The notes under the pieces were generated by a model, which had not been told where the DNA came from, did no database searches, and was given only the letters and a program-made list of their open reading frames with translations. DNA of 64,000 nt from Phoronis australis (lineage: Eukaryota; Animalia; Phoronida). Made by a program: the position numbers and the translations under genes. The DNA is taken from NCBI GenBank assembly GCA_002633005.1, contig NMRA01000002.1:2202655-2266654 (forward strand). Reading direction: 5' to 3'. Each line of letters starts with the position of its first letter. Position 1 is the first letter of the stretch. This document shows positions 623 to 47,290 of the stretch, in pieces.

Positions 623-932
623 CCATGACGAATGCTGTCATGAAAATTCCAGAGTTCGATGCACCGACCAACAAGCGGAGGATGACAAATGCAATGTAAT
701 TTGGTGAGAATGCACAACCCACACCAGAAGTCCCTTGAAGGAAAATTGCAATAAGCAGCGTCTTCTTGCGGCCAATCCTAAACAAACATCGAGCCGTTTA
801 CCTCGAGGGTACCTAAGGAGTTTGCTATAAAGTTTGAAACACCAAGCTAATAATCTACGTATTTTATACAGTACAAGTTATGGAAATGTTATGGTCATGT
901 TCTGAGGCTGTTACAACAGCTGTTTCCTCTGC

Positions 933-978
<46 letters not shown>

Positions 979-3900: not shown

Positions 3901-5510
3901 GGTAGCGGACCAGCGGACCAGCGAAACTGAGTGGAACCCGACCGGTGACGAGAAAGTAGAACACGTTGAAACTGACGACAACCGAGCGATCAGCTACATG
4001 TACAGCCTACGCCGTCAGTGGTAAGAAGACGCACATCAGTCAGACTAGCGCAATCCGATCAGATTCCGTCAGTTGCAGGGGCGGATCCTGGAATTTGANA
4101 ATAAACAAAATTTCGACAGATGCGCGCGCCCAGCCTAATTGTTGGCATCCCGAGGTCTCGAAGTCTGGGTTTTCGGACCTGTTGACTAAAAAAAAAAAAA
4201 CAGTAAACGGGGTTGTTCAGGGCCTATGCAATGTTTATTCACTTATTCACCCCCCTAGGCCCCTTGGTTGCGCGCATGTGCTAGTCAGATATTCGCATCC
4301 GAACTCCCAAATTGTATCTGGTGTGAATTTTAGGGGGGAGGGGCATGGCCCCCTTGGCCCCCCTAAATCCGCCACTGAGTTGCTCTCAGTTGTCGGTAAC
4401 CTAGCTGTTTACAACTGCATGGTTGCGTTCAGTTTTAAGGCCGATGTACGACGCTAGGCGTTTGGACCTTGCACAGACCTGACGCTATATCTTAGGGCCC
4501 TGCACAGACCAGGCGCTACTGTATATCTTGGGGCCCAGCACAGACCAGGCGCTATTTCTTAGGGCCCTAAACAGACCCGGCCAGGCGCTATATCTTAGGG
4601 CCATTCACAGACGCACTAGAGCCCTGCACTGACCAGGCGCTCCGGCTTCGCCCTCGCAGCCACAAGTGCACGTTTTGCAACACTTTTTACTGTATATTTA
4701 GTGACAATGGTGAGGCGCGAGATTAAAACTTTCCAGTGGCAAGACCAGGAAAAGTATGAATATCACGAATTGAAGACCCTTCACTAATTATCGTTCTCTC
4801 TTCTGATCTTACCTCGATTAATTCAAGTTCACGGTTTGTTATACGAGTCAATTGCCGAAAACAGATAATCAATGTTAGAGGCGAATGTGCGCATTTTTAA
4901 CAAGTATTCTTTGATTGATGGATATACAATGCTGCCTCCCATGCTACTGCATGTTTGACATTGTGATAGACCGTAAACTTTAACGTTCTCGTAAAAACAT
5001 TCCTCCTGGCCTTGATGTAAACAGGGAAGAACAAGTCAAAACAATAAATATTATTTCGCTACATTTACTGATTTCTTGCTTTAAACAAATGAAAATGCCT
5101 CCGTAAAACACATCAACACTAATTCATTAATGAAAAGTCTCGGCATGTGACCGCAGACGACATACCATTAATTCAACACGAATTCGACGTTCCTTTAAAA
5201 TGGGAGCTCCGATGCTCTTCCAATTAATGTATATATTTTTATTAAATACATGTATTTATTACGCTGTAATCACGATTTATTCAAAGATTTCCCTTTAAAA
5301 TGCAAACTAATACATTAGAAAGCATCTGTTACTGCACCGTAGAACTGACAAAGATAATACTGCTTACCTGTACTTCGGCGTATAGGCGATAAAAACAGAC
5401 GCTAACATGTGAATTGCGCACGGAATGGTAGGTAGGCAGAGCAAAAAGCAAATGCGTATTTGATAACGACCAAATGTCCCCAAACTTTGAAGAATTTCGT
5501 CAAAATTCAT
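623..5510 (-). CDS. SLC22/Orct-like transporter, gene C (exons 1-4, continues left of window; recent duplicate of gene B)
   Basis: Exons 5510-5368 ([17 protein letters not shown]), 3048-2796, 1727-1624, 777-623; lengths 143/253/104/155 identical to gene B, open frame, GT-AG sites, near-identical peptides. Confidence 0.88.
929..978. repeat. (GCT)n microsatellite (paralog about 30190-30250)
   Basis: Direct reading of the sequence. Confidence 0.9.
2340..2745. repeat. Degenerate (GAT/GAC)n intronic low-complexity tract (paralog about 31575-31985)
   Basis: Trinucleotide repeats; source of the spurious Asp-rich ORFs. Confidence 0.85.
4076..4377. mobile_element. MITE with CAG(G/T)GGCGGAT TIRs and 5-bp TSD (hAT5-like)
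   Basis: TSD AGTTG at 4071-4075 and 4378-4382; empty site in the paralog near 43490. Contains an N at 4099. Confidence 0.75.
4465..4642 (+). repeat. Minisatellite with a unit of about 31-35 bp, GGGCCCTGCACAGACCAGGCGCTATATCTTA (also about 42705-42820 and 43585-43740)
   Basis: 5-6 head-to-tail degenerate units with no spacers. Confidence 0.8.
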
Positions 5511-23300: not shown

Positions 23301-26300
23301 TCCAGTTGAACGCCAGCCTTCGGATTTTTGAATAACAAAAATGTACCTGTGCTACGAAACTGAAGGATCATTATAGGTCGAAATAAACGAAAAATAATAA
23401 AATGTCCTTACAAACAACTTTGCGGGCCGCCAAACTAATGCATTAATCCAGCAGATGCCGAGACAAAGGCGCCCCAGACTAGAGAAACCCCAGAATCAAA
23501 ATCAAATAAGCCTCCAGTATAGCCACCAAACTGAAAATTACGTATCTTTTAAAAAACATATTTGTTTTAACCTTCGAGTAATCCAGCTAACATTGCCAAG
23601 TTTAGCTGCTGGTGTGGCTGCTCACACAGTTTGATCCAATGTTTACACAGTCGACAACACTTTTGGCTTAGGGAATGCCCAAAAATGACGGGATGTTCTT
23701 GTCGAGATGAATAGCGGCTGTCAGAACTACACACGCCACATCAACACCGTTTCACCATTCTTATCGCACAATTTTTGAGCTATAAGCTAAAATAAGGTTT
23801 ACCGACAACGATGTTGTTTGTCGAGTAATGGCGGCTTGGAAACGCAGACGAATGTGTGTCAAGAATGCTGTGTTCTGTCAGTTAAGCCATTAGTCATAAT
23901 ACTGGCGATTGGTCAATTATACAAGACATGGGGACCTACCTGCTAAAGTTGTTGCCGTCTTGTATACTTTCAGGCAACTCCTTTCCGGTTGTCTCTGGGA
24001 GAATGAGGGAAAGAAGTCCGGCGGTGATAGTAAGTCCTCCAAACACGATTTGCGGCAATGCCACGCCGAAAGGTCCTCCGAGCATTTTGCCCTGTTGTAG
24101 TACAAGTATTTCAATTAACATGTCTTAAGAGACCAAAAGACGGAACTTTGCATACGCGTTTTAAATGCATAGTTAAGGACATTCCTCAACATGCAAATGT
24201 CATCATCATGAAATAGCAGGCCTCAAAAGCAGTTTTCACCCACTTCCTCACAATATCGTTACCTCCATGCACGTATGCATGAGTAGACGCCGACGTTATT
24301 TCCAGGTCGTGAAGCGAGAATCCCATAACAAATTCATAAAGACAATCACACTTGTTGAGCAGATCACTGTCACCCAATACACTATTACAGAGTCAACTGC
24401 ACAACGTACACGTGTTTGAAATCGCAGTGTCCGCCCACGTTGACTACTGGAATTGATTTCTTGAGAGTGGGTGATACATTGCTGGCAAACTTCAGAGCGC
24501 GTCAAGAGTGGTTCAATTTTAAGGTATAGACCTTTTAAATTCACAGGGTTAAATCTTTTGAGTATACTTTAAAGGGAAGAATTAAAATTACAATAGCTGC
24601 ATTATTTTTATCTCTTGTGTTTTTCACGTGCCCTTCAGGTTACAATGCTTCCGACCTGTAAAGTAGTCTTTTAAAGTACATGTACATGAATACCGAGCAA
24701 GTACAAATACACAAAGAAACGGATTTAATCATTTGCGTCATCAATATAAATTGCATTGAAATCTGTGGCAGAGACCATTAAACAGGTTGCCAGGTTTCTA
24801 GAGTCCACATTGAATTTCGAAATCATCATACGAAAACACTGGATCCATCTATAAGATCGGTCGGCAAGATTCTCAGATCAGACAAAACAATTACCGACCA
24901 TCAGTGTACATGTATAAGAAATTCTCAGCATTTTGTACTCACCGAGTCCGCAATTGGAGCGCATACCATACCACCTACACGAGCAAAAGTAGAGCTCAGT
25001 CCCATCAGTCCATTCCTACAAATCGTAGGGAAGATCTCGGCAGACCAGAAGTAAATGATGGCAAATCCAACGGAGGCGCCAAATTTCCCAGTCATTGAGA
25101 GGGCTATCAACCACTCATTGTTTGCTGGAAATAAATGATATAAAATTTTCACAAGCAAAGGTAAGTACTGGAAACGTGCCGGAGATGAAAGAACGTTAGG
25201 ACCTGATAGTACCGTTTTTACACAAAGATCAATGTGGACCGCTCTGTTTTAAAACTTCTCGTGATAAGAAACGCAAAACCAGATTGTTTATATTTGTATG
25301 GCCGGGTTACGCTTGTGGTAGCCAAATCTAAGTTATTCCTCTTTAACTGTACCTACGCTGTATAAGCCAAGTGATTGAGAAAAAAACTTAATGAAGTGAA
25401 CTTTTACTCACAATCAAAGTAAAGAACAACGAAAATGGTGCTGATACATGCGAGACCTCCTAGCACCATATTGCCGGCATGTGGATATTTTCTGCCCAGC
25501 CATTTACATGCAAAGCAGAAAGCATAGGCGGGGAATTCGACGAGTCCAGACAACATGAAGTTGACAAACACATCTCCTCCCAAGTTACCGCTATTCAGAG
25601 ATAACCCGTAGTAGACCATGGAAACCACCATCCTGAAATATTGAAATAGTAAAGATTTAGCTAGTATTCATGTTTGTGCGCGGAGACTTAGGTACTGAAT
25701 TAGTTATTAACTCGTGGAATTCAATTTTGTGCAGATAAAGAGTCAGTCAAGGAACAGTTGAGTTCCTCCGGTGGTTATAATTTAATATAACCATAAACTT
25801 GTTTGATGCAGCCCGAAACAATAACGGAAACTTACTACACGTGAATTCATGCAGACTTAACGCCACAACATGGTACACTCACTGCAAAATAACTTAATGA
25901 AATCTAATCTGCCTGTCTGTACCATAGACATCTTAATACTATAGACCGAGCGCACGCGCTACTGCAGCTGACAACTTGACGCCATATTGGATAGTGCTAC
26001 TAGTCATGTGACACGGTTAATTGCCGCGTAAACAAACGGGGCAAATTACTCTTTTCAAAGCGCGATGTCTAACAAATAAAGAGGCGGAAGAGCGTGATTT
26101 TTTCCAGAAACATAAAAAACTTGCACGGGGTTGAACCTAGTACACCGCTGTTTAGTACTCGTCTTCTTGTTCCAGTAAAAGGTCCAAATAGCGCGAAATT
26201 CGAGCCGCCACCTACACTGTATACTTTAGACTGGGTGCGCGCATGTGATCCTCTGCCTTGCCCCCCCCTAAATCAAAATTCTGGATCCGCCTTTGGAACG

Positions 26301-29300
26301 GATGAGTAATGACGAGACGGGTTTTCAGTGGCGTGAGGTCAAATTTTCAAGGGCTGAAAATTTTTCACATTAAATTTAGACCCTGTGAAAAAACTAGCCG
26401 GGGGCATTTGTCACGGGGTCATTATTTAATGCTACACCGGGTCGGTTGTGTATATTTCTACCCGGTTTCAAGTGGGAAATTCTGTATTTTGGTTATAGGT
26501 CGGATGCGCAATTCAGTCGTACAGGTTTGATATTTTGGTTACTATGCACTTTACTTTTTGCGCAAGTTTTGAGTCACAAAACAAAGAGCTCGTAAGCAAG
26601 CAGTGCAAATCCACAAAATTTCCAACATCAACTTTAACATAAGTACAGATTTTGAAGGGATATGGTTGTTTCAATACATCAGGAGAAATCTGATTTTGGA
26701 ATAGTTATTAAGAAATGAGTTCTTAAAGCAGTATACATGTCAACAGCGAATACATTATTCACTTAGATGTACTGATTTTGACTGCTAGCAAGTAGGTTCG
26801 GGGATGTTACTTTAAGAACAAGTAAAAACTACATATGATTGTCATTAATACCAAATATTTACTTAAATGTAATTAGCAAACAGCAGCATCATTGGATGAC
26901 AGCAGATGGTGATCAATAATTATCTTTTTAATTCATCTTATATGGTCTCAATCTCCAAGACTGATTTGGAAACAACGCATACATGTATAGTCGCTCCGCT
27001 TAAAGTATGGTGACATAACATAAAAACCTAGTTGCAGCACCACTAAACTCTATGGCAGCACCAAAAACCCCATGACTCAATGACAGGACCAAAAAACTTA
27101 ACACTTTGCCCGCATTTCCTGACTGATACCGTAGGGCTCCCAGTGTTTTCCGTTTTCCGTCATTTTTGTCCTGTGGAGCACTTTCCAATATAGCGTCATA
27201 TTGACAACGCGAGGTGCATGTATCTGAGTAGCGCGCGTCTATGGTCTGTACATCCCCGTGAAATTTTTTATGGATTCCGTCTTCGCAGTGATTCCAAACA
27301 GAAGCGTCTTGACTGCAAACAATGGGTACTTCGAATAGGTGAAACTTGCGCATAGGACGAAAAAGAGGTCTTTGAAACTGGCCTTCGAAATTATTTTAAA
27401 TTGTCTTTGATATCAGGTGCCCTGAAGTTTTTGTGGATCCTCTGCAAACACCAGGTTTGGTCACGTGACTTTCGACATGCTGCTTCCGACTTTTGCTTAA
27501 CTTGCTCCAGAAACTAAGTGACTTATCACGTGAGTGTCACCGTTTCTTCAAACTCACCAATTGAAAAAGATAACGAGGCTGCGTATAAGCAGTGTAGGTG
27601 CATGAATGAGCTCCTTCAGAATTTCTATAAGACCCATTGATGGACTCTTCGTGGTCTCTGCAGCTGGCTCTTCGTCGAACATTTTCTCAGGAAGTGTCAC
27701 ACGATTTTCCTGGGACAATTGAAAGGGAAACGCTAATCAATAAACTGTCAGAGCAGATAGACTAAGAGACAATGCTAATGTTTTTACATGTACATGTACA
27801 TGTACGTGGAAGGCTATTGATGGAAAGAATGAGATATCAAAGTTTGGGACGTCATTGTCAACCATTGCTTATGCAGATACAACACTTGGCGCTTACAAAA
27901 CTTGGATTTCTGTGTTCGCAATGTTTACACTTAGAGATGTGTTGTTCACAAAAGTGCTTACCTTGGCTGCGCGGCGTATTATTTCCTCAGCTTCTTCTTT
28001 GCGACCTTGTGCCAGGAGCCAACGCGCTGACTCGGGAACAAAGCTTTAATATCATCAGAAACAACGCTTAAAGTTAATCCAAGACGCCACCGTTTAATGG
28101 CAATAGTTTTCGTATTTTTAAAAAATACATGTATTCAAAGTCCTATTTATTAAAAGTGATAACTATCAAGAAAATATGACTTCTGAGATGTCGTAGTTAA
28201 CTTTCTTGAAGAAAATGAGTTTTTGGAACTTCGTTTGGCTAATATTAACTTAATATGGATTTTGCTTTGTAATTACAATGATATGTTTATGTAACATACT
28301 AAAATTAGTAACCAATCAAATGTCGATATTTTTAAAGAATTAAAAACATAAACTTGAGCGAAGAAGTCGATTAAGAAAGAAGAAAGACAGTTTTTGCACA
28401 CGTACCATACATAACAGAGAAACAGAAAGGACGGAGCGGAATAGGAAAGTTGAAGCCAGGTCCATTCTCTTAGAAGGTATCCGAGACCCGTTAAAACAAG
28501 TATGCCAGAGGCGAAAAAGAACTCTATAACGATCCCAGCAAAAAGTCGCATTGATGGAACCATTAGTTCCATACCTGAAAATGAAAAGATGAGTAGAAAA
28601 GCTAGAGATCTTACGAAAAAATCACCTTTCTGGCAAAGGTGCGTTCTCGCTGTTGGAAATCAGAACTTACAGTTTCGATATGGTGACATTTTATTGACTA
28701 ACGATGTCATTATCAGTATTAAACGGGCTGGGTGATGGTACATGTATTTCAATGTTTCTGAAACACTGCCGTTGCTAAATATGGGCTCAGAGTTTTGACG
28801 TGTTTTGCCTGTAACCGTCGAGGTACAGACTGTAATCGCGACCCCGTGCCGGGATCTTAAAGGTATGGGCGGGTAACTGCTTTCGATGGAGCTTTGATTT
28901 TGAGAAAAAGAATTGTTTTCGGAGGATTTCATCTGCAGCACTGTTGTCTTTTGTCAAATGCATTTTGAGACGGTTGTTGGGTAGTAAACATCCAGTGACA
29001 AATAACTTGGTGATTCGTGAACAATATGGCGGAAACCAACACCGCTTACTTGAGTTCACCACAATTGATGTGAGCATGCTCGTTCGGTACAATTCGCCAT
29101 TTTCACCACAACGTTATAAAGTACATATATAACGTCACACAGAAATGGAGTGACTTTTTATCGGAAGAGTATGGCTGTGAATATAACAGCCATGATGTTT
29201 ACGAGCCAGTAACCCTCCGGCAACGCATTTGAGAACTGAGTGAGAGAGGTTTGCCGTGGATGACATCCTCGGAATTAGCATACGTCTAGCAGGACTACAC

Positions 29301-32300
29301 ACGCTTTGATTTAGCTTACCATATACCGATAAAATATATAGCGGCGGTAGCAGACGCTATGAGCTGTATCATACTCCAGTCACGTAAGCCGTATGCCATG
29401 CCAGAGAGGATCGGGTAGGAAACGGCAAACAGACAAAACCGCACAAGGACCGTGTTTACGCGAACGTTTAAAGCAAATGTCTCCATCACTAAAACAGTAT
29501 GTGATTGCAAATATGTAATGCTTACTACAGCACGTCAAATATAAATTAAGTTTTTAGACTTTCATATTCTTTTTTTAAAACTAAAAAATAAAAAAGCACC
29601 ACATTGACATCTACCGAATAACCAACATTAGTTTGTAAAGGACGAGTTTGCACCATATCTCCCATTATAGACTATTCCGATATCTGTCTCTCCATCTAGC
29701 GTTATTCCGGTGTTGCAATCATTTTTATTGCGCATCCTCTGGGCTGCTATTATTGTCTCATTGTCAAGGTCAAGGTCAGTGTGCACAGTCTTGGACGTCA
29801 CTACATCTGTGCATCTTCACCCTGATAATGTTGTCCTCGTTATTACATGTAAAAGAATTTTTACAATCATTCAGAGTAGCCAACTTACCCACGACGAATG
29901 CTGTCATGAAAATTCCAGAGTTCGATGCACCGACCAAGAAGCGGAGGATGACAAATACAATGTAATTTGGTGAGAATGCACAACCCACACCAGAAGCCCC
30001 TTGAAGGAAAATTGCAATAAGCAGCGTCTTCTTGCGGCCAATCCTAAACAAACATAGAGCCGTTTACCTCGAGGGTACCTAAGGAGTTTTGCTATGAAGT
30101 TTGAAGCACCAAAATAACAATCCACGTATTTTATACACGTTATGGAAATAATATGACCATCTTCTGAGGCTGCTGCAACAGCCGTTTCCTCTGCTACTCC
30201 TACTGCTGCTGCTGCTTCTGCTACTGCTGCTGTTGCTGCTGCTGCAGCTACAGATCCTGACAAGCTAAAGTACTGATTCATGTTGAAGATCGGCTGAGTA
30301 TATCCAAATTTGTATTCTTAAGAGCTATTCCTTTCACAGACTTTTAAGTGCTGCGTAGTGTAATAGAAATTTCCGTCCAGCGTCGCCTGTAGGGTCTATA
30401 ATTATGATGGCGTTTCGATCATTTCACTGTTGAGTTTGGATTAGGAATAGAGGCTCTCATATACCACAGTAAATACTACGATTGATAGGTTCGTACGAGA
30501 GGGAACACGTAACAGCAGAAATTTAGTACATGTATCAAGAACCTAAGCTGCGGTGTGTTCTAATGCTCAATTGGAAATTCAGTGGGCGATTTTAAAGAAA
30601 GGAAAGGGATTTTTTAAGTATCGTTACTGGAGAAAATGATCTTTTATAAATCTGGAGGGGGATGCTATGGTGGGAAAGATAGGAAAATGTTGACAAACCC
30701 TACTTAAGAGATTGTGCCGACCAGTTGGTTGGAAGGACAATATATTGACGACCGAGAGGAAAGTGTTACAAAACTGTCTTAATCCTACAAAAAGTCACCT
30801 GCAAATTGGCTTGATTGAACGCACGACAATAATGAGCCACAATATCAGATCGACTTGGCAGGATGTCTATGTCACTCCGTACTTACGCGTCGGATAAAAG
30901 TCCAAAGCCAAAGGCACCGACTAAGACACCTCCCATGAATATTACCGTGGCGTAGGTTGCTAAAGGGGCATCTTTACAGACAAGATTATACTGAAACACA
31001 AGAATAAATTGTTTCTTATTTGCAGTTCAGAGTTAACGGTGTGGACGCAAGATTACGTAGAACCTTATCATCCACAAATCTGTAAATTCAGCTAAATATG
31101 CTCGAAACTACATGTATAGAGTTTAATTAGGAAAAAAAAAGTAAATTTTCAGATGTTTAACTTGATACCAATCTGCCATTAACAAAAGGAAGAACGATAC
31201 ATTCATACCAGAACGCCAGTATCAATTACAGTTTTCTACATTATCGTTTCGTTTTCGCTTTAAGCAAATTTATTTTTATGAAAGTTATACAAGTCCTATT
31301 TTCTATAGTGTTTCGTGCAAACGTGGAACATTTTAAAAACAGATAGTGACACCATTTGGTGCAGAAACCATATTATCTAAAAGTTTAATATGATTTCGCC
31401 ATTTCTGTGACGTGATGTTTTTGCTGTTTACTTAAAAGTGGATAATTTTCTAACAATCATCGTTCAATAATGTCAGTGGTTACGGTGATGAGGGTGATGG
31501 CAAAGCGATGAGAATTGTGGTTGCTGTGATGCTTGACGATGGTGGTCTCAATGGAGATGTTGGTTTACAGGTATGTACTGATGACGACGAGAACGAGGAC
31601 TACGACAATGACGATAACAATGAAGATGATGTTAGTGAAGATACTGATGATGATTATGATGATGATGATGATGAAGATGATGGCATAAGACACCTACGCC
31701 AGCGGCGATGATAAAGATGAAAAATCTGTCGGTTCTTGTGGTTGTAATGCGGATAGTTTTTAAAATATGGACGGACCACTAGTGATTCAACGATTGTTGA
31801 TGCGATCGGTTATTGTGTGGATGGTGGTGGTTGTGATGACGACGATGGTAGCGACAGAGATGCTGATGATTACGACGACAACGGTGGCAGAGGTCGTGAC
31901 GATTACGATGACGTCAAGATTGGCAATGGTGAGGGTGATGATGTTAATCATGCTGATGAGGAAGAAGGTAGTGGATGGTGGTGTTATCGTTTTTCGGCAG
32001 GTCTAAGTATTGCAAATACTTTAAAGTACCTGTGTTATTATAGTTTCTTGGAACGTCGACTTGTCGTAAACCCAAGCTGAGCATTCTCTTTTATTCAATG
32101 TAATGTTTAGCTTCTCCCACGTTGATCCGTTCGACTTTAGCAAGTCCCACGAAGGTGAAGTCATGTTAACACCAGTGTACACGTGACAAAAGTCGTCTTC
32201 CGGTATGAAGGCTTTAATATAGAGCTCGTGCGTCTTATTAATGGCGTCGAAAGTGTCGCCGTCATATCCCGGAATGGCGCACCTGTGGAATAATAAAGTT

Positions 32301-35300
32301 ATTGGCAAAGAAAAATACTAATATAACCCCAAACAAGGGGTAAGAGCAATTACAGTAAGTAAGGAAGTAAGTAATTTTTTATTGTAGTGGCATGTGCTCA
32401 AATGAATTTAAACAATGAAGACGTTACAAACACTAGGAACACCCAGACCTCCACGGGGCTTATAAGTCACTTCAGATACATGATACAAAAAAGAAAAGAC
32501 AAGTGTACGCACATTGCAAGAGGACCAGAAAGAGAAGGCCGAGGTAAAAGTGATCATAAATAAATATAATTTTTCCTTACTTCAAAAATATTTTTGATGA
32601 AAACTGAAGTTTTTCTAATAACATCTCTTTGCATGATTGTAATTAATTTACTTTCACAGCTTTCTGCACGGAATCGTGGATATTTAATCTCAACTTGACA
32701 ATAAAAGGTGTTTCTGGCATCTAAGAAAAACGGAACCTCAAACAGAAAATGTAGTTCAGTTTCGACCTGACCAGTGTGACAAAGACAGCAAATTCTGTCA
32801 TCAAAATATAGAGAACGAAAACGCCCAACCTCAACCAATAGGTGTAGGATTCCGGTTCTAATTTGAGCAAGAATTGACCTACTAGGCCGAGTTAAGTCTA
32901 AATTCACGTAAGGCTCAACTTCAAAGACATTCTTCATCAAAACATAGGTTCTTAACTTTGGTTTCGAACGGCTTTCAAACAACCACCTATTACATGCTAA
33001 ATCATCCAAAATATTCTTACAGTGAGACAGTTTAACTGAACGTAAGTCATGAAAACAATCCGAAATCCCTAATTCTTCAAAAATGCTCAAGACTTCAGAC
33101 GACCAATTATTAGTACAAGTAGTGTAGTCCCACCAAAATATTCGGTATATTAGTCTATCATCCTCGAAATTAATAATACGATTCCACATTCTCAAAAGCT
33201 CAATTTTCCGCCTAACACTGGGGAATTCCCACCCCATGTCACCCATAACAGCATGATTAGGAGCGAATTTGTGAACGCCCAAGAAAAATCGCGCGGCTCT
33301 ATTCTGAATGACATCATAATCCTGTAGACTAGAGCCGCCCCAGACACCTACGCAATAATCTCTAACAGGCACAACACAAGCATTGAATAATGTAGTGAAC
33401 GTTCTGTACCTCATATTTTTTATTCTTTTTAAATTTATTAATTAAAACGCCCAAAGCTCTTCCGGCAGATTCGGATAGAGTTTTAGCAGTTTCAGAAAAC
33501 TTCAAATGTTTATCTATAATTATTCCTAAAGATTTATATTTGGGTACATATTCTAGGTCTAGTCGACCCAACCGAAATGGATATAAACTACGTGAGACAT
33601 GCTTGGATCTGAAGTGAATAACATTATTTTTTTTCCTGATTGACAATTAGCCTCCATTTAGAGCACCATTTATCAACTATATTCAATAAACCCTGTAAAT
33701 TTTCTTCGCTCTCGGCAAGTACCACTATATCATCAGCATAAAACAAATTTAAAATGAAACATTATCAGCACCGATAGGAATTCCTAAATTTGACTGTTTT
33801 AATTCCTTTGCCAAATCATTACATTAGCACCGGGGTAGCCACCTAACAACAAGATCTCTAGGCTCACAGCCTGCACAAAAAGGCGGACACGGTGTGACAT
33901 GTTTCCTTCAAGTTGGACCTGGATTCGAGTTTAAATTTTAAGACGTTGTTTAATAATTTTCTTAAGGAAGACCAACCAAATTAGTTCATTTTGAACTGTG
34001 AAGGAGCTTCATGCCATGGAGGCTTGCAAAAAGAAAAAGCCCATCGAGTAATAGGGCTACCTAATAGAAGAGAGCACTTTGAAATACACACGAACACGTT
34101 ACACAACCTGGCCAATGAGAAAAATGAGTAGCCTTCTAGTCGAGACAAAGTCAAGTGTTAATTATTCCACTGTTCAGAAGCGATATCGCAGACAAATTTT
34201 CCACCGAGACTGCATCTCAAAGTCAAATTACTTAAAAGGATACCAAATTCTGTTTTGGCCTATTAACATACATTAATGGAGTATGCCACCCGAAAAACAA
34301 TCCATTTTGTATCAATTTAGATCGAATAGTTCTATTCGGTTGCGTTACCTGACATCTGACGGCAGACGGAGGTGTTGAAATTATCCAATGACGTCATTGG
34401 TTTCACACGCAGTCTGTTCAGCAGTTCACAACACGGGTTACTAGTGTCAGCTTATCGCTTGAATTCATCCTTTAACACCAAGAAATCATCAAACTTCGAT
34501 GTAAAACCTTTTAAATTACACCGAGTTCTTATAAAAACGTGTTGTTTTATTTCGCTGTTATGGGTTTACTGGTTTTTCCTACAAAGTTCGGTAGGCCAAT
34601 TTACCAAGGTCCGTAGCAGTAGGTTGGGTTCTGTTCGGAGATAAATTCGAAGTATTCTTCCGTGAAATATAGACAAGAGAACCTAGATCTGTGTTGCATA
34701 GACTTGTGATTTTTGGATTCTAAACCCACAAAACTCTTGTTATCCCGGGCAGTGGCTTGGAACCCGATCAGGCCCGTCGCGGCCGCCGGGACTGGCACGA
34801 ACATAAACCAGCTTGAGTTGGAAACTAAACCTCCAGTCACGAAAAGACTATAATAGTGAGCCAAAGAAATAACGTGCTCGTAATTATTTATGTGAATTAG
34901 TCACGCAACTGAAAATCTACTTACTTGCCGGGAGCCACGAAGTCGGATTCCCCTTCCACAAACCCTCAGGGCAAAGGTTGTACAATAACAATGATTTGAA
35001 TAATGTATTTCTAAATAAAGATTCCCCTAACATGTGACCATAGCATATAAAATCGAGTGATTGTTTCACAACAGCTTTCTGTCAGCAAACTCTGAATTAG
35101 CATGCGCTCACACGGCCTCGGTGCCCGGTCAGTTACCTTTATCGGCGGCATCAAAAGCCGGTAACGCAGTGGTTTATCCATTGCTGGCTTCTCAACTTTT
35201 GCACTCACGAATAATCCAAGGCATTACAAATTGTATCTAATGAAACAGACTTTGTTTCAGTTTTATATAAGCATTGGTTAAAGTGAGAATAATTCATTTT

Positions 35301-38300
35301 GAAACAGAACGCAGAATTATAAACGTTTACATGGCAACTCGCCCGGCGCCAATCCCGACTCAGTCAAGAGCTCATCTGACAAAGACTTCACTGGTCGGAT
35401 CGATAGGTTTCACAGGCCATCAGTTTGAGCCGGAATACACTGATCAAGAAATACTAGAGAGGCGCCTTGAACTTGCATAGGCAACGGAGCGAAATGCCGG
35501 CCACAGACATGGAGATGTTTCACAGCCTCATACTTGCTATTAACAGCGTACCTTGCATTCTTCACTACAGCGAGCCACCTCCTAAACATTTCGGGCTCTC
35601 GATGAAGTCGAAAAAAAAACGATATACCCGCTTTCTTCGCAGCTTCATTGTTCGAACAAGCGGGAACGATACACCGCAATATAGGGGCATTCACTCTGCA
35701 GACAAACGACTGATGTCGCTGCGTCGTTTCTCACCTTCCTCACAGGTTATCGCGACACTTCTCGGCAAGGTGAGGTCGACCGTACAAGAGGCAATGTGAT
35801 TTTAGACCGATAAAGACGGCAAAAAAGACTAATTAAATCGGGTGGCATTCTTTAAATACGTATTTTATATCAAATTCTCTGAAACAAAATACTACTCTGT
35901 AACCCATCGACAAACCTCAAAAGTTTGGGGGAAATTTTGACAACTCCTTCAATATCTACGAAATGGGCAAGCATGACCTCCGCTTTTACCTAATTACACG
36001 TCAACTGTGGGGAAAGAGCACTCATTAAGAACCACAATATCCAATCTCTGACGTAGAGAGTCTGAATTTTTACTGGCCCCTGCTTGTATCGTTCAATATG
36101 GACGCCAATAATGCATAACCATATGACCGATCGAGGGTTGACTTAAATCATCGAAACAGAGTTTATTACCTTTTTAACCGAGACGAATTCTCAAAAGGCT
36201 TAACAATCAACAGAGTCCATGAAATGTCCTCATCAATGTTCACTAAGGAAGAACGTCCAGAAATATGGAACGCCGGTGTGTTCTTTTGAGAACGCTAGCA
36301 TTGCACGCGTTCGTACAGTGAGAGCAATACGGTAATCACTGACAAATGCCTGCATGAATTCGGAAATCGAGGATCGCGCTCTGATCATTGTTCAATGGCA
36401 ACGAAGGATTTCATAGTAGCCAATACTCAGCTCTTAAACAGCGATACCAACTTAAGGGTTGGTTTACCGACTAATTTTAGTCATTGCAAATCAAGATGTT
36501 ATTTTGAGAATGCGTTCATTGGATTCCTCCACACAAGTGCATTGTACGCGTTGATACGCGGCAGTTGAAATCATCACTGGAATAGACCTATCGCAAGCTC
36601 CGCCCCTATGCGACAATCGAACGAGATGTCAGAGGCAAATACACTGTCGCTAAACGACGTTCTTGGTGGAATCGATGAGTGTTTTGCACTATTGCAAAAC
36701 GCCTCGACAGAGACAAGAGGCGACGCTTTTCAATAGAGAATCGTACGTTCATGATATGAGAATTTGTAAAGGTGACGATGAAAAAATAAGTGCTCGAGGA
36801 GGCAGCGAAAATCCGAAGAACCCCTCGGCCTCGGGGCCACCTTCACCTGACAAATGACAAGGCCACTGATACGATATGTTTATGTAAAACTGGGTATGTA
36901 CCTTAAAGTCGAATTATCTGTACGATTCCATAGATTTCATGATCTTTCGAATAAAATCAGTGAAGATTCACCGATATTTTTATTCTGTCGTCTGCTACAT
37001 TTCGCCAAATGAAAAGTAGGTCACAACTGGTGGGACTCCTGGAGTAAAGTAGGTCATAAAAATTCAGATTCATTGCTCAGGTACACACTAATCTCGTCCT
37101 AGGCAAACAGTTAGCTCCTGTAGGTCTAGGGCTGTGTCTAAATCAAATTAATGTCTGGAATTCAGTGGCGGATCTAGGATACCACAGGGGGGGGGCAACG
37201 GCCAGGGATGAAGACCGTTGGACCTCCTGTTCAGAAAATCTATCGGTGGACTAAAAAAACAGGAACACGATTCCGCCAAAATCTGTGGTCTGAGCCCCCC
37301 TCTTAAGCTACCGGTCCTAGTTACTGAACCCAATATTTCCTCACACTTCATGCTCTTGCTGTTTCATTTTGCTTAAGGCAGCCAGGGGGGGGGGTGTTGC
37401 CGCTGCCCCCACCCCCTAAATCCGCCTATGGAATTGTCCGTCTGCGCCATTAAGACATTTAAATTTGGCCTACCTTCTTATGAACTTGGCATTGTTTTGT
37501 AGCTTCATTCCATAAAGGTAGCTTTCATTTAATTTGGAGGTAGCATGATCACTAAGTCGTGGTATGGTGACAAAAGATTACAAGTCTGGTGTGGTATTTG
37601 CAAAAATAAGGTATTTACAAAAATAACTCAAATTCTTTTTTAAAGCTACATAAATCTAAATATCATGTTTGAACAACTTCAAAATGAGATATCTCTAACT
37701 CCGAGTCTACAGATATAGTGTATATTAGAGGTAGACGCCAAAAAGTAATTCAATAGTTTATTTTAGTGACAACAGCTTGACCAAGGCTTTGATTTCCGGC
37801 AGTAATCCACTGCTCTTCCCTGTGCCGATCGAATCTCTGAGTTTTGACCGGGAGAGATGTTCAGTTGAACGCCAGCCTACAAAAATGTACCTCTGATACG
37901 AAACAAAATAATGTCCATTAGGTTGAAATAAATAAAAAAAAACATAAAATAAAAATGTTCTTGAAAACAACAATTTCCGGGGACTATCGCTAGAGTGCTG
38001 AGATTCAGCAGGTGCCGAGAAAAAGGCGGCCATACGTAGGAAACTCGGGAGTCAAAATCTGAGATACGCACCATAGTCACCAAGCTTAAAAGTGCGTATC
38101 TTGGAACTAATATATTTGTGTTTATTATAGCCTTCGAGTTGTCAACCAACATCGCTGAGTTCAGCTGCTCCTGTGGCCGTACAGTTTGATCCATAGTTTA
38201 CGCTTTTCAACATCATTTTTTGGCTTAGGACATGCCAAAAAATGACGGGATATTATTCTGGAGAAGCATAACGGCTGTCGGTGCTACACACGCCATATCA

Positions 38301-41300
38301 ACACCGTTTCCCCATTCTTAGCGGACAATTTCTTGAGCTATAGACTAAAGTAAGATTTACTCGAGTACGTGTGGTTTGTCGCGTAAAATGGCGGCTTGGA
38401 AACGCAGACGAAGGTGTGCCAAGAATGCTGCGTTCTAATTGGTCAATTAAGCCGTCCGTCATAATCCTGCCGATAGGTCAATTGCACGCGTGAATCCGGA
38501 AGTAACTGATCAAGCTAATGTTAACTTACATTGGAGGATTCCATAACAAAATGTTTTATTTTTGAGAATGTGTTCTTTGCACTTGTCCATACCAGTTCAG
38601 TACAATCGCTCCAGTAACAACGAGCAAGTGAAGTCAAAGCTGGAGCTGTTTATTCTCTCAGGATACCCAGGGTACTTTTCAGCGCCTTCCGGATTGACGG
38701 AGTGCAATGCACCCGTATAATGCACTCGTATGGACAAGTGCAATGTTTTCGAAAGAAAACATTGACCTTCCATACATGTAGATGTACAGGAAAGCATCAG
38801 ACAAGTGTAAAATTCTGGCACTGGGGCAAGACTAACTCCGAAATTCGTACCCCAAAGAACCATAACAGATTTTGTACCTTTTAAATTTGTAATGGTGCAC
38901 CAACAAAATAGTCTTTCGCAGCAAAATTGATGAGATTCGCCATTTATTCATTTAAAAAAGACGAACAAGCCCGGGCTATACACGGTGATATATTTCAATT
39001 GATGTGATTCGTTCTTAAGCTCCAAACCGTTGTTTAAAAGGAAAGTGTTTATTTAAGTTGCAACTTAACGTTTTGAGTGACCTGCCGTTAGAAAACTTGG
39101 GCTGCGTTTTGGAAGACTACATCACAAATCCGTTGACAAGGTGTTGCAATCTCCGGCAAGAGTCACTATGCACTTCACACGTGAACGGCCATTGTTTATC
39201 CCTTGACTGTACCAACAACTCTGGAGTTTGCATGCCGGTATATCCAGCATTGGGTAGTGATCCCTTTGGCCGGATTGATGAAACAGGGGTAAGTAGAAAC
39301 TCCGTCGGATATCCAAATTTTCTGCGCATGTATGGTATTCTCCTTTCTATCGTCTTCCTATCGCTTCATCTTTGTTAGAAGCTCCTCTTTTACTGGCGAC
39401 ATTTTATCACTGAGTCCTAATTCCACTGACCGAAAATAAATAGAAACTTGGTCCCTAAATTAGGGGTGTTGTATAATTGCAAACGGTTGACCTAACAGAA
39501 AATAATAGAAGAATGCGCTGAAGATTTAGGGAAAGTAGCTGAGTTCCTGTCTGGGGCATTTCATACAGTCAGAATAGATTGAACATAAAAATAAAGAGCT
39601 CGTTTACCAAAGTTTTAGAAAAATTTCCTTCGTCGGGTACGAGCTTATCCATTGTTAGCCTTTGTGCAAAGATATATACAAAATACACAGCTTTGCGCGT
39701 CAAGAGCATAGTGTTTTCAAAACGACGACATACTTTTTATTGCTACAAAAGCCTGAGAATTAAGCAAGAAAACGACGTTTATTAAATTGTTTTTCACTTA
39801 AACCACTGTAACAAGCAAGGTGAGTGTCAGTTGACTGAAAGAGTTTGCACGAATTCCCGCCGTTTGTTAGCTCTACATGTTGATACAAGTTTCACGACGA
39901 GGTGACGAGCAAAACTACCTGGGTTGTGTGAAATTTCGGCGCCAACGGTGCTCAACACACAGTGTTACACTGTACCTAGCTGTACTTTGACGTCGTCATA
40001 CAGCTAGCTGGCTGATTAATCAATTTATTGTATGTCTAGTAGAAGATTGGGAGATATTCAGTGTCCTAATGTCGTATGAAATCACAAATATCGCTATACT
40101 TTTTTGACTTCGTCATATCGTAAATACGAGTGCTATTCTGGTGACGACCGGGACTTATTTACATAACAGCGAACTCTAAGCACGGATTCCTGTGCATCTT
40201 TCTTTTATCTGGTACTCGTGTATAATCTCATATGTAATCGGTTTGAGTGCGAAGTAAACAAAAAAGGGTCAAACTTCACGTCTTGCACATATACGTGGCC
40301 ACGTGACTTGTGCAAAATCTATATTGGCAATTACTCAGGTTTTCGAAAGTCAAGGACATGGAAATTCTGATCCACTCGTCTATTTAGTTTTTAAGTATTA
40401 ATAAAAATAAAAAATATGGGACAGCTATTTTTTGAAGAATGTACATGCTTTTGATATTCACGATGAAATAATCTAAGCTTTGTACACGTAGTTGATAAAT
40501 AAAAGGTTACTGCACTACAAACTTCATGTGCCAGTCTTTGCAAGTGGTGTAGTGGTAAAATTAGAAGTAAGTAGGCGCTCAATGCCCACCGTATCACCTT
40601 GAGCACTGAATTTTAAAAGTGCACTGAATTCGCACTATAACGCAACTTACGGTGCTTAGGCGCTACGTTTAAATGCCAAAAGGTGGTTGGCTTCGCCTAC
40701 GTGCGCCTACGCCTCACTACAGCACTGTGTCTTTGTAAAGTGTAACCTGAGCAAAATGTGTTGACATTTTTTTACGTGTGGTGGCAGTGTCTCAAGTTTT
40801 GGAAATCCAAGTACTTGGTGTGCGATTTTTATGAGCTCTGACACAACACGCTCAGATTTACTACTACGTGTCCTCAGCTTACGAGAACGTGTGCATTGTA
40901 CTCGTTCATACTGAAATATGTGAGTATTTTGCAAACGTATATTTACATGTATAACGATGTACATGTGAATCCCTAAGTCGTTCTCATTGCGAATATTTAT
41001 ACTCTGGTACCCGCGGTTGATTAAAATCAAGATGGTATGATTTTTGCCTTCACCATGGGGGTACTGTGATCTGTGCGTGATGTTTCAGCGATATTCGTAT
41101 TCATGTGTGCATTGTGCAGTGACAATTGCAAAGCAATGCACGCATTCGGAAAATAACACTTGTGTTGCTGCGATAGGCTATTGCAGTACAATCTGAGCTC
41201 CACGTGTTTTTCGGTGACTTTCAGATTGACACCTTCATTGTTCAGCGACGATAGCGCTGTTCAGGTGCAACGTGAACGTGTGAACGAGTCATTGCAATGA

Positions 41301-44300
41301 CGTTCCTTAGCAATCAATTTTAGGCCTCTGTTATTCACGGTGAATTACCAAAAACTTTTGCTAACTAAAATGATGACGTTATATGTACGCAGTCTTTGTA
41401 AAGTGTAACCAGGGCTCCTTACTCTCTCTAATGACAGGCTCAACAGATGCATTTCTTATGGTAAACGACCGTAATTTCTACAAACATGATTTTTCGGTCG
41501 AAACTTGCAAATTTTATTTCTTTATTCCATAAGCTACAAAGAGTGCCCGGGATTTTCTTTGAAGGCTTTATTACATGACAACAAACTGGCGTTCATAGTC
41601 CTCATTAAACCTTTCTCGGACGTTTTGAGAACGAGTAAACTGATGAGTGCTTTTCCGTCTCTGATACTATTATGATAAACGTAAACGTAACTTTCATTGT
41701 TTTAACCCACCTAAAATATATCATACTGAAATTTTGCTTTAGAAATTCAGTTAATTTTTTTGAAAATCAGAATGGTTGAGTGTAAGTACGTAGTTTCATG
41801 TTTTATAAGCATAATGTGCCTTGACAAGACTGAAGTTTTGATGAAGAGAAGAAGTGAACTGATCTAAAATTCCCAGAACAAAATAAACCATGGGCCAGCG
41901 TTGGTGGTTCGGTCGGCTGATTTTAAGTGAAAGTAAGCTGACTATAGGCGAGAGCTGTGAGCTCAGATAATTTTCAGCTGAGTCAGCCAAATGAAATCAT
42001 CGCTCTCCATCTGCGCTGGCCCTCAGGCTTAAGAGCAACCAGCTTATAAGCGAACCAATGCTCGAGCATCAAGCGCAAGCGTAAGGCTTCTGAAAGTTCG
42101 TGCAGCAGGCAACTGTCTCATTTGAATCGGCCTCGTCTTACGACGTGTTGCGCCACACAATTCGAAAGGCACTTTCCTACGGGGGACAGATAGATAAAAT
42201 TTGACCAGATTCACAGAGGACAACGCTTGTCCTCTGATAAGGCTTGTCATCAAATTATCTCTCCTACATTATTTTTGCCAGTTGTTGCTGGATAATGCTC
42301 CTGAGCATATATTGGCAATGGTTTTATCGCAGTGCTGAATTAAAGAGGCTACAAACCAAACTTGCCTAACTCCGTCGAAAACTAACTGTTGATCTAGGGG
42401 ACTTGCTGTTACAAATGTAGCCTCTTTCTTGTTTCTTGTTCATATTAGGGATGATTTGCGGGCTTGGGTACAACTTTCAAGATCAAGCTCTGTAATTTGG
42501 TTTGTCACAGACTGTCATTTCTTTCATCAAGATTGGCTTTCGAAGCACAAACAATTACACTGTCAGTTCTTTCATACTGTATACAAAATATCATTCTTCG
42601 TCCGAGAAGGGAACACGTTGAGATAAGTTTTATAGAAAAAAAGTGGTCTAATTTGAACGTAGCTTTATTTTTGATGGTCACTGGAGGGCTTTTATTCGTG
42701 TCAAACAAGGCCCTGAACAGACCAGGCGCTATGTTTTAGGTACCTGTGCAGAGCTGGCGCTATGTCTCAAGTCCCCCCCTCTATAATCTTAGGGCCCTGC
42801 ACGGACCTGGCGCTATATCTATAGCTACCGACAAGGCAACTGGCAGATTCCGGACATGTCAGTTTCTAACCACGCGTATACCGAATTTAGCGATTGTGAG
42901 AAACTAAGCAGTCCCAGTTACCCCCAGTCACGCTTGCGCACTCCGTTGAAAGCGACTGCCGTGCAGTGACAGAGTTGTGAAACATTGAAAAGTACGCTAG
43001 GAGGCGCTTGTAATCACGTGACTTACATAAAGACGTGTGTATTTGCCACTGTAACTTAGATACATGTATTTGGCGGGTAGTTATATACTTTCCGGCAGAA
43101 TTCCTTTTTATGCAGTTGACCAGTTTTCTTTTCATACAGTCCTTAAGATCAAGTTTTGAGTAAATATCCACATTTCAACGAGAACATCGTCCGCAGAATT
43201 GGTCCAAGCCATAAACATCACATGATATCTATGGTCCAAACATTCGTTCTTTTATTGGGTTTTAGTGTAAAATTAGGTCACATGACAATCACATGGTCGC
43301 TAAAATATGACCACTAGTTGCAGCAAGGCGTACATCGGGGTAGCGGACCAACGAAACTGAGTGGAACCGGTGGCGAGAAAGTAGAACATGTTGAAACTGA
43401 CGACAACCGAGCGATCAGCTGCATGTATACGCCGTCAGTGGGAGAAGACACACATCGGTCAGGAAAGCAATGACAAACCGTTCAGATTCCGTCAGTTGCT
43501 CTCAATTGTCGGCCGGTAACCTAGCTGTTTACAACTGCATCAGGTTGCGTTCAGTTTTAAGGTCGATGTACCACGCTAGCCTTTAGGACCTTGCACAGAC
43601 CTGCACAGACCAGTCACTATATCTTGGGGCCCAGCACAGACCAGGCGCTATTTCTTAGGGCCCTAAACAGACCCGGCCAGGCGCTATATCTTAGGGCCAT
43701 GCACAGACCAGGCACTAGAGGCCTGCACTGATCAAGCGCTCCGGCTTCGCCCTCGCAGCCACAAGGGCACGTTTTGCAACGCTTGATACTTGTGACAATG
43801 GTGAGGCGCGAGATTAAAACTTTCCAGTGGTAAGACCAGGAGAAGTATGAATATTTGTTCGCTCAAATCACGAATTGAAGACGCACTTCACTGATGATCG
43901 TTCTCTCTTCTGATCTTGCCTCGATTAATTCTAGTTCACGGTTTGTTATACGAGTCAATTGCCGAAAAGAGATAATTAATGTTAGTGGAGAATGTGCGCA
44001 TTTTTGACAAGTATTCTGTGATTGATGGATATACAATGCTGCCTCCCATGCTACTACAGGTTTGACATCGTGTTAGACCGTAAACTTTAACATTCTCGGT
44101 AAAAACTTTCCTCCGAAAAATCAGTATGCAAACAAAAAAGCCGCTTTAGCGGCTAATCTTCCATTCTTCAACATTTCCTTTGAGTGTGTGGACATGAAAA
44201 AAGACAAATCGTGCGAAACACGGAGACTAACAGCTTAAACTATACCTGTAGAAAATAGGGCCTTGATGTAAACAGGCAAGAACAAGTCAAAAAAATAACT

Positions 44301-44787
44301 ATTATTTCGCTACATTAACTGATTTGTTGCTTTAAACAAATGAGAATCCATCCGGAAAACATCAAGTGAACTGCAAAAAACACATCAGCAGTAATTCATT
44401 GATGAAATGTCTCTGCATGTGACCGTAGACGACATGGCATTACTTTAACACGAATTCGTTCCTTTAAAATAGGAACTCCGATGCTCGAGCAATGTCTTTA
44501 TACATTACATTTAGTGTATATATTTTTATATATTTATTGCCCTGTAATCACGATTTATTCAAAGATTTCCCTTTAAAATGCAAACTAACACATTAAAAGC
44601 ATCTGTGACTGAACCGTAGAACTGACAAAGATAATTCCGCTTACCTGTACTTCGGCGTATAGGCGATAAAAACAGACGCTAACATGTGAATTGCGCACGG
44701 AATGGCAGGTAGGCAGAGCAAAAAGTAAATGCGCATTTGATAACGACCAAATGTCCCCAAACTTTCAAGAATTTCGTCAAAATTCAT
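20319..44787 (-). CDS. SLC22/Orct-like organic cation transporter, gene B (complete, 11 coding exons, 585 aa)
   Basis: Exons with GT-AG boundaries: 44787-44645, 32282-32030, 30990-30887, 30043-29889, 28574-28406, 28043-27962, 27709-27558, 25632-25412, 25124-24943, 24091-23940, 20463-20319; sum 1758 nt, in frame. SLC22 motifs: [81 protein letters not shown]; ends AEDRL*. The exon 6 acceptor has a weak polypyrimidine tract, but its 82-nt length matches gene A. Confidence 0.92.
20540..21900 (-). mobile_element. One or two heavily decayed Tc1/mariner transposase remnants in the last intron of gene B
   Basis: Minus-strand fragments LEGM..AVARRL (about 21810-21755), IGHLIWE (about 21435-21410), GKTTTED (about 21005-20985) and [10 protein letters not shown] (about 20715-20683) resemble the Tc1 HTH, RKTT and SPDLNPIEHLW motifs; many indels. 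Confidence 0.45.
22123..22263. mobile_element. Same MITE family, short copy
   Basis: CAGTCGCGGATTT ... GGATCCGCCCCTG; degenerate 5-bp flanks aaacc/gcacc. Confidence 0.6.
29320..29488 (-). CDS. Candidate alternative (mutually exclusive) exon 5 of gene B
   Basis: 169 nt, tttag acceptor and gtaag donor, phase 1 start and phase 2 end exactly as exon 28574-28406. Open frame [56 protein letters not shown] aligns without gaps to the canonical exon. Confidence 0.7.
32355..33817 (-). mobile_element. 5'-truncated non-LTR retrotransposon (L2/Crack/Daphne or RTE-X-like) in gene B intron 1
   Basis: FYADD RT motif near 33740; C-terminal [23 protein letters not shown]; AATAAA plus (TTAC)n tail near 32355-32385; ATTACA TSD at 32349-32354 and 33818-33823; absent from gene C intron 1. 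Confidence 0.88.
34277..35851 (-). mobile_element. Second full-length copy of the same Kolobok-type element, inverted
   Basis: TTAA at 34273-34276 and 35852-35855; same TIRs; THAP ORF 35694-35410 (RCIVPACSN...RRWLAVVKN...VCGRHF). Confidence 0.8.
36584..38480. mobile_element. ISL2EU/PIF-Harbinger-like non-autonomous element (other copies about 22278-23915 and 62812-63012)
   Basis: AT|AGACCTATCG ... CGATAGGTCA|AT termini; about 1.6 kb collinear with 22278-23915; right-end fragment at 62812-63012. Superfamily inferred only from the termini and AT TSD. Confidence 0.6.
37163..37430. mobile_element. Same MITE family, nested in the ISL2EU-like element
   Basis: TSD GAATT at 37158-37162 and 37431-37435; absent from the other copy of the host element near 22876. 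Confidence 0.75.
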
Positions 44788-47002: not shown

Positions 47003-47246
47003 ATCACCACCACATTACCACCACCACCACCACCACCTCCACCACCAGCACCACCACAACCACCACCACCACCACAACCACCACCACCTCCACTTAGAAG
47101 TAAAGATTTCAGGCAGTTTACAGAGCACGAACAAGGAAAAGTGGCAGAGGTTACCCTAGCCAATAAATTGAAGTGGTTGTTCAATGTAATTAGGCCACCT
47201 AACCCTTTTAGGTAACTACACAAACACACACACACACACCCACACA

Positions 47247-47290
<44 letters not shown>

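What the first reader, a model, noticed from the sequence alone, without database searches (positions are those of the whole stretch)
29320..29488. Hidden second exon 5 in the SLC22 gene B: candidate mutually exclusive exon swapping the TM5-TM6 substrate-pocket segment
Seen: intron 4 of gene B holds a 169-nt open segment with canonical AG/GT sites, the same length and phases as exon 28574-28406. It aligns without gaps, but only about 16 of 56 residues are identical (ME-x6-R, FA, L.G..Y.LR.W..QL..SA kept). 169 is not a multiple of 3, so including both exons or neither frameshifts the transcript, which is the classic mutually exclusive layout. It is far more diverged from B exon 5 than gene A exon 5 is, yet has no stop or indel. 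Inference: this pattern suggests selection. From my recalled human OCT1 sequence, the canonical IVIEFFF aligns to the Q241/F244 pocket region. The alternative reads LVRFCLF there (Glu lost, Arg gained), so splicing could switch substrate or charge preference. I do not know of this arrangement in SLC22 genes, but cannot search the literature.
Basis: partly seen in the sequence, partly recalled or inferred. Interest (0 to 1): 0.75.

Follow-up and report, generated by a model that had tools for sequence, protein, structure and literature searches.

The report
Spare pocket exon in SLC22 transporter
An invertebrate relative of the human drug transporter OCT1 carries a second, strongly diverged copy of the exon that lines its cargo pocket; RNA shows the copy being spliced, and a sister gene copy uses its own version in frame, so this gene likely makes a second transporter predicted to prefer different cargo, although the clean swap was not seen for this exact copy.

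Summary
The sequence observation holds. 29488-29320 (minus strand) is a 169-nt AG/GT exon in the same phase as canonical exon 5, with 16 of 55 residues identical. Either exon alone gives an open 537-codon model; both or neither give a stop. The exon is transcribed: exon 4 is spliced to it in all 4 RNA runs laid (two studies). Exclusivity is leaky and only partly shown. Four reads join it to the canonical exon (frameshift), and the exact junction 29320>28043 was not listed in any run. A diverged copy (about 21% different, probably another paralog) has the same length and joins exon 6 directly in up to 16 reads; the two copies show dN/dS of about 0.2-0.3. The exon keeps the residue matching OCT1 F244, changes the Q241 position from Glu to Phe and puts Arg at the Y240 position. 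It has also lost 7 near-invariant family residues. Verdict: a real tandem-duplicated substitution exon of a known kind (SLC7A2, SLC12A1), not found in print for SLC22 in my searches, and apparently being divided among tandem paralogs. Earlier scan notes report this kind in other transporter families, not in SLC22.

The parts
29320..29488 (-). Alternative (duplicated) exon 5 of SLC22 gene B, 169 nt, TM5-TM6 segment
   Evidence: AG/GT, open frame; acceptor used from exon 4 in 4 of 4 runs, donor used to the canonical exon in 4 reads
28406..28574 (-). Canonical exon 5 of gene B, 169 nt; most pyrimidine-rich acceptor of the ten compared (0.85)
   Evidence: exon 4>canonical 6/9/1 reads, canonical>exon 6 9/8/0 reads in X2/X3/X4; acceptor scan
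29889..30043 (-). Exon 4 of gene B (TM3-TM4 region), shared upstream exon
27962..28043 (-). Exon 6 of gene B (PESARW motif), shared downstream exon; holds the premature stop when both exons 5 are included
28575..29319 (-). 745-nt GT-AG intron between the two exons 5; too long for steric exclusion, no convincing docking/selector pairing
   Evidence: 50-nt steric limit from PMC5740500 section 7
23940..44787 (-). Gene B, exons 1-10 as modelled (44787-44645, 32282-32030, 30990-30887, 30043-29889, exon 5, 28043-27962, 27709-27558, 25632-25412, 25124-24943, 24091-23940); last coding exon not located
   Evidence: tblastn with scallop homologues; open model with GT/AG ends; about 50% identical to molluscan OCT-like proteins
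58332..58500 (-). Single exon 5 of upstream paralog gene A; no second copy detected in gene A
623..5510 (-). Exons 1-4 of downstream paralog gene C (4/143, 22/253, 2/104 and 4/155 nt differ from B); its exon 5 region lies outside the window

Best explanation
The segment is a transcribed, spliced duplicate of exon 5 that likely serves as an alternative coding exon, replacing helices TM5-TM6 and so likely retuning one wall of the substrate pocket. Shown: the exon is spliced from exon 4; only one exon 5 keeps the frame; a diverged copy of the same length splices straight to exon 6. Inferred: in gene B nothing physically prevents double inclusion (745-nt intron, strong canonical acceptor), so exclusivity would rest on frameshift and nonsense-mediated decay plus sample-dependent choice. 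Inferred: the tandem paralogs are dividing the two forms. Gene A has only the canonical type, a fourth copy seen in run X4 uses the alternative type, and B keeps both. Predicted effect on the protein: the aromatic cage residue (OCT1 F244) and the loop Glu (E226) stay, the Q241 position goes from Glu to Phe (Ser in the X4 copy) and an Arg enters at Y240, which would shift cargo preference or affinity rather than abolish folding.
For: Exon 4>alt joint in X2 4, X3 6, X4 8 reads and one X1 contig. The X1 contig matches gene B exon 4 with 0 differences over 94 nt, including 3 sites that differ from gene C; no canonical-exon contig was laid in X1 while exons 6-7 were. In X4 the diverged copy joins exon 6 in 4 two-sided reads and 12 loose-end reads, against 0 canonical>exon 6 reads; the lengths add up to the same 169 nt. 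Between that copy and the window's, 29 differences over codons 9-54 fall 7/6/16 on codon positions (third-position excess p=0.013), dN/dS 0.19-0.33, Fisher p 0.00006-0.007, no stop or indel seen (hand count; statistics). Neutral decay does not reproduce the exon (0 of 476 and 0 of 495 stop-free simulations). Pocket mapping. Q241A and F244A strongly inhibit metformin but less MPP+ transport (PMC10940649 passage). Joining reads occur in 83 of 377 frameshifting human MXE clusters (PMC5740500 section 7).
Against: The junction 29320>28043 is not listed for window-like reads in any run, whereas alt>canonical has 3+1 reads. In X2, depth suggests that about 4-5 of 7 reads run unspliced through the alt donor (my estimate from binned depth). 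The X3 reads into the exon mostly carry the gene-C-type exon 4 end, so they may not come from gene B. The exon keeps 5 of 16 near-invariant columns against 12 for both canonical exons; it has lost the TM5 Gly and TM6 Pro found in 113 and 106 of 113 relatives. Pairwise dN/dS cannot say which copy was under selection; of 4 variants seen in window-like copies, 2 change the residue. No relative with this exon type was found. No transport data.
Confidence: 0.55

Rival explanations
1. The alternative exon is a true coding exon only in a sister paralog (the X4 copy). In gene B it is a leftover, for instance from unequal crossing-over between a canonical-type and an alt-type gene, and acts as a leaky or poison cassette whose inclusion upstream of the canonical exon sends the transcript to decay.
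For: The only listed partner of the window-like donor is the canonical exon (4 reads), which gives a stop at codon 350. B and C are 88% identical through introns, so recent duplication or exchange is active. Divergence to the X4 copy is patchy (12 of 30, 4 of 69 and 13 of 41 nt), as conversion tracts would give (hand count).
Against: X1 shows gene-B-type exon 4 joined to alt with no canonical contig laid (a hole in contigs proves nothing). Gene B's copy has intact splice sites and no stop or indel despite about 21% divergence from the X4 copy. About 4 of 9 X3 reads stop at the alt donor with no listed partner and could include 1-2 exon 6 joins (estimate).
Confidence: 0.3
2. The X4 copy is a divergent allele or cryptic-species orthologue of gene B and not a paralog; the gene is then a plain mutually exclusive pair whose choice differs between individuals or tissues.
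For: All listed runs carry the same species label. The window ends inside gene C and no whole genome is held, so a fourth paralog was not seen as DNA.
Against: X4-type exon 6 letters occur in 2-4 of about 30 X2 reads, and window-type letters in about 4 of 27 X4 reads. That fits paralogs at different levels better than alleles, unless samples were pooled.
Confidence: 0.1
3. The exon is a dead duplicate everywhere; splicing to it is noise and the alt-type transcripts encode a non-working transporter.
For: Very long branch (4.8 changes per column) and loss of near-invariant Gly, Pro and Tyr; profile score 38 bits against 79-83.
Against: dN/dS about 0.2-0.3 between alt-type copies and failure of the neutral simulation; dominant in-frame use in X4; the unusual Arg16 and the loss of Pro47 and Tyr54 are shared by both copies.
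Confidence: 0.05

Closest known systems
SLC7A2 (CAT-2A/CAT-2B)
   Same: One SLC gene, two homologous internal exons listed as annotated MXEs (supplement rows); the splice forms differ in 42 residues and in substrate affinity (PMC12839458 passages).
   Different: Different fold and family (SLC7). The CAT-2 exons are visibly more alike and the event dates at least to vertebrates; here identity is 29%, the event looks lineage-specific, and function is untested.
SLC12A1 (NKCC2) exons 4a/b/c, SLC25A3, SLC39A14; invertebrate NALCN
   Same: Tandem duplicated exon substitutions in transporters and channels. SLC12A1 exons cannot be joined without frameshift and NMD (PMC8373072 passages). NALCN exons switch Ca/Na selectivity (PMC9741552 passage).
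   Different: Those events are old and conserved across species; no conservation outside this species label could be shown here.
Splice isoform separation after gene duplication (Abascal 2015, PMC4494069, abstract only)
   Same: Each paralog keeps one of two homologous exons; 11 events reported. Gene A (canonical only) and the X4 copy (alt type in RNA) beside gene B (both) fit this pattern.
   Different: Here the separation seems incomplete and within one tandem cluster; whether the X4 copy has lost the canonical exon is unknown.
Human OCT1/OCT3 (SLC22A1/A3) and molluscan OCT-like SLC22 proteins
   Same: The canonical exon aligns without gaps to OCT1 233-278 (E 1e-7) and OCT3 235-284; gene B is about 50% identical to molluscan OCT-like proteins.
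   Different: No SLC22 entry in the supplements of three human MXE catalogues as held. No exon-5 swap among 450 near-identical pairs of 201 fetched invertebrate SLC22 proteins.

Membership tests
Tandem duplicated (homologous) exon substitution / MXE | Adjacent homologous exons of like length and phase covering the same protein region | tested here: met
   169/169 nt, same phase, ungapped, family HMM 31 bits
Tandem duplicated (homologous) exon substitution / MXE | Each exon spliced from the common upstream exon | tested here: met
   exon 4>alt 4/6/8 reads plus contig; exon 4>canonical 6/9/1; haplotypes of exon 4 differ between the two sets in X3
Tandem duplicated (homologous) exon substitution / MXE | Each exon spliced to the common downstream exon | tested here: inconclusive
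   canonical>exon 6 9/8/0; window-like alt>exon 6 not listed (under 3 reads per run); met for the diverged copy in X4
Tandem duplicated (homologous) exon substitution / MXE | Both-included transcripts absent or non-productive | tested here: inconclusive
   4 joining reads exist; they are frameshifted with a stop at codon 350, four junctions upstream of the last modelled one; decay not tested
Tandem duplicated (homologous) exon substitution / MXE | Exclusion mechanism: steric, U2/U12 incompatibility or competing RNA pairing | tested here: not met
   745-nt intron, all GT-AG; inverted repeats at most 74-85% complementary and mostly A/T runs; only the frameshift route remains
Tandem duplicated (homologous) exon substitution / MXE | Purifying selection or cross-species conservation of both exons | tested here: inconclusive
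   dN/dS 0.19-0.33 between two alt-type copies from partial read consensus; no other species available
SLC22 (MFS) organic cation/anion transporters | Homology over the length to SLC22 members and SLC22 motifs (exon 4 MFS match, E-x6-R loop, PES-x-RW) | tested here: met
SLC22 (MFS) organic cation/anion transporters | Near-invariant TM5-TM6 residues in the alternative isoform | tested here: not met
   5 of 16 columns kept, against 12 of 16 in the canonical exons and 13 or more in 111 of 113 relatives
SLC22 (MFS) organic cation/anion transporters | Transport of organic cations or anions | not testable with these tools
   needs uptake assay

The most novel reading that the evidence does not exclude
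A single SLC22 gene switches its cargo class by splicing. The alternative TM5-TM6 removes the pocket Glu, adds an Arg and turns a cation-type transporter into one for neutral or anionic cargo, and the tandem cluster is caught while handing the two splice forms to separate paralogs, whose alt exons keep varying the Q241 position (Glu, Phe, Ser).
Probability: 0.15. Interest if true: 0.75.

Novelty: new member of a known kind. Interest (0 to 1): 0.5.

Why it matters
If the swap is productive, it is a natural chimera experiment on the SLC22 pocket: two transporters identical except for TM5-TM6, differing at a position (Q241) that affects cargo choice in human OCT1. It would show how far this segment can drift (29% identity, loss of residues thought invariant) and still transport, and it would give a recent example of splice forms being divided among duplicated genes. 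The arrangement itself is a well-known kind, and this genome appears rich in it, which limits the surprise.

Tried and rejected
No whole genome is held, so gene C's exon 5 region and the X4-type locus could not be read; gene C's visible intron (622-1) has no alt-like segment. The run search listed no RNA holder with a large share; the lays, not that list, are the evidence. Homologue searches with the alt peptide: 0 of 33 candidates; 1 hit among 1.84 billion representatives, a 3982-aa repeat protein unrelated to SLC22, rejected; 2 metagenome loci matching only 17-19 residues, treated as chance and not followed. Pfam gave no family for the 55-aa alt peptide, nor for gene A's exon, so it is uninformative. 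The alt peptide's best PDB matches are OAT4/URAT1 (E 0.003-0.04) rather than OCT1 (E about 2); in the alignments shown this rests largely on the short loop motif and is too weak to infer anion transport. Lowering likeness to 80 did not bring up the 29320>28043 row. I considered arguing from Logan's 150-bp contig filter that X1's missing contig was the short alt>exon 6 one; the paper's wording (PMC12424806 passages) does not allow it. No docking/selector structure found. Y240 in OCT1: only a figure legend naming a Y240F mutant was seen, without its result. My first gene model had three boundaries off by one and was corrected. Literature searches for an SLC22 mutually exclusive exon listed nothing on it; the library lacks most subscription papers.

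Full report
Observation. The window holds three tandem SLC22 genes on the minus strand: A (exons 2-10), B (exons 1-10 modelled) and C (exons 1-4). Gene B is about 50% identical to molluscan 'organic cation transporter-like' proteins, and the best hits to its exon 4 were scallop proteins at 53-57%, so the species seems not to be annotated in the protein collection. Intron 4 of B contains 29488-29320, 169 nt, AG/GT, in the same phase as canonical exon 5 (28574-28406) and open in the homologous frame. The two share 16 of 55 residues and 73 of 169 nt. Either exon alone gives an open 537-codon model; both give a stop at codon 350, neither a stop at 240. A profile from 113 distinct homologous segments finds three exon-5-like pieces in the window and nothing else above 1.4 bits. 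Substitution-only neutral decay from the canonical exon left 476 of 5000 copies without a stop, and none of them scored as well as the alternative exon; from gene A's exon the figures were 495 and none.

RNA. Three raw-read runs of one study (18-19% of each read) and one contig run of another were laid. Exon 4>alt: 4, 6 and 8 reads and one contig. Exon 4>canonical: 6, 9, 1. Canonical>exon 6: 9, 8, 0. Alt>canonical: 0, 3, 1. The junction 29320>28043 was not listed, which means fewer than 3 reads in every run. The libraries hold much unspliced RNA (intron depth up to 13). From binned depth I estimate that 4-5 of 7 X2 reads run through the alt donor unspliced, and that about 4 of 9 X3 reads stop at the donor with no listed partner. 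Several gene copies contribute. The X1 contig into alt has gene B's exon 4 (0 differences in 94 nt, 3 of them diagnostic against C), and X1 laid no canonical-exon contig while exons 6-7 were laid; contigs show presence, not absence. The six X3 reads into alt mostly carry the gene-C-type end of exon 4, and the X3 reads into the canonical exon carry a third form.

A diverged copy used in frame. Run X4 is dominated by a copy that differs from B at 7-8 of 82 nt in exon 6 and shares none of gene C's four exon 4 differences among the rows shown. Its exon 5 is of the alternative type and joins exon 6 directly: 4 two-sided reads and 12 loose-end reads at that place (these may overlap), against 0 canonical>exon 6 reads. 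The visible pieces add up to the same length. Over codons 9-54 I counted by hand 29 differences from the window's exon, 7/6/16 by codon position (p=0.013), about half of them silent, giving dN/dS 0.19-0.33. The count rests on 30-nt consensus strings and the listed rows (61-82 rows were not shown), so it is approximate. There is no stop or indel in the visible part. Arg16 is kept, position 17 is Ser, and Pro47 and Tyr54 are absent as in the window's copy. Minority reads of each type in the other run suggest a fourth paralog rather than an allele.

Protein. The canonical peptide aligns without gaps to human OCT1 233-278: position 16 = Y240, 17 = Q241, 20 = F244, and by the same register position 2 = E226. 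Q241 and F244 contact metformin and other ligands (PMC10567722 passages); Q241A and F244A strongly inhibit metformin but less MPP+ transport, and E226 belongs to an intracellular network with R287 (PMC10940649 passages). The alternative exon keeps E226 and F244, changes Glu17 to Phe (in none of 113 relatives) and Ile16 to Arg (in none of 113). It keeps two hydrophobic stretches and the TM5-TM6 loop motif, but only 5 of 16 near-invariant columns against 12 for the canonical exons. In a tree of 38 peptides (35 drawn at random from the 113) it groups with the window's own exons (95/81) on a very long branch (4.8), which suggests a lineage-specific duplicate with fast change; long-branch placement is unsure, and it is no closer to B's canonical exon (16/55) than to A's (19/55), so the duplication cannot be dated.

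Mechanism. The intron between the exons is 745 nt, all sites are GT-AG and no convincing pairing was found, so steric, U12 and docking mechanisms are not supported. The canonical acceptor is the most pyrimidine-rich of the gene, which fits the observed alt>canonical leak. Exclusivity would therefore depend on frameshift and decay (inferred) and on regulated choice. Joining reads do not by themselves refute an MXE: they were found in 83 of 377 frameshifting human clusters (PMC5740500 section 7). My best reading (0.55) is a working alternative exon with leaky exclusivity, in a cluster that is dividing the two forms among paralogs. The main rival (0.3) is that it codes only in the sister paralog and is a relic or poison cassette in B.

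Comparison with what is known. Substitution exons in transporters are a known kind: SLC7A2 (affinity differs between splice forms), SLC12A1, SLC25A3, SLC39A14 and invertebrate NALCN, and separation of such exons between paralogs has been described (PMC4494069 abstract). I found no SLC22 case in five full-text searches (listings only) or in the held supplements of three human catalogues, where SLC7A2 or SLC25A3 served as positive control (long files may be cut). No exon-5 swap appears among 450 pairs at 85% identity or more from 201 fetched invertebrate SLC22 proteins of 300 residues or more; cluster members were read for 20 of the 120 listed clusters. Earlier scan notes, unchecked, report pocket-swapping exons in SLC6, SLC13, SLC20 and ABC transporters of other genomes and many MXEs in this genome; none overlaps this locus.

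Verdict. The feature is real and expressed, a new member of a known kind, probably the first noted in SLC22 within the literature I could search. Productive use in gene B itself and any change of cargo remain unproven. Interest 0.5.

Noticed in passing
window 28449 (canonical exon 5), runs X2 and X3: A 1-nt deletion appears in 6 of 19 and 2 of 18-20 reads. It may mark a dead canonical exon in a paralog or allele. Arithmetically, alt (169) plus a 168-nt canonical exon restores the frame, and the shifted frame is open, so a double-included transcript of that haplotype could escape decay. Not phased.
   Followed up: partly
proteins P0011/P0214/P0215, P0019/P0131/P0135/P0137, P0061/P0204: Annotated SLC22 isoforms of Mizuhopecten, Mytilus and Patella differ only in residues about 2-50, which looks like alternative homologous first exons (TM1).
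   Followed up: no
window 413-3106 versus 29679-32340: Genes B and C are 88% identical through introns 2-4; similarity breaks at 413, where different sequence begins in gene C's intron 4. Five X2 reads carry this gene C intron sequence, so gene C is transcribed.
   Followed up: partly
window 6800-19323 and 34273-35857, 43342-50583: Several kilobase repeats (78-95% identical, both orientations) recur between and within the genes; some belong to the B/C duplication, others look like mobile elements.
   Followed up: no
window 28998-29041: A short intronic stretch is covered by opposite-strand reads with loose ends on both sides in all three raw-read runs, probably a repeat shared with another transcript.
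   Followed up: no
window 30160-30230 and 31800-31960: Degenerate triplet repeats in introns 3 and 2 of gene B.
   Followed up: no
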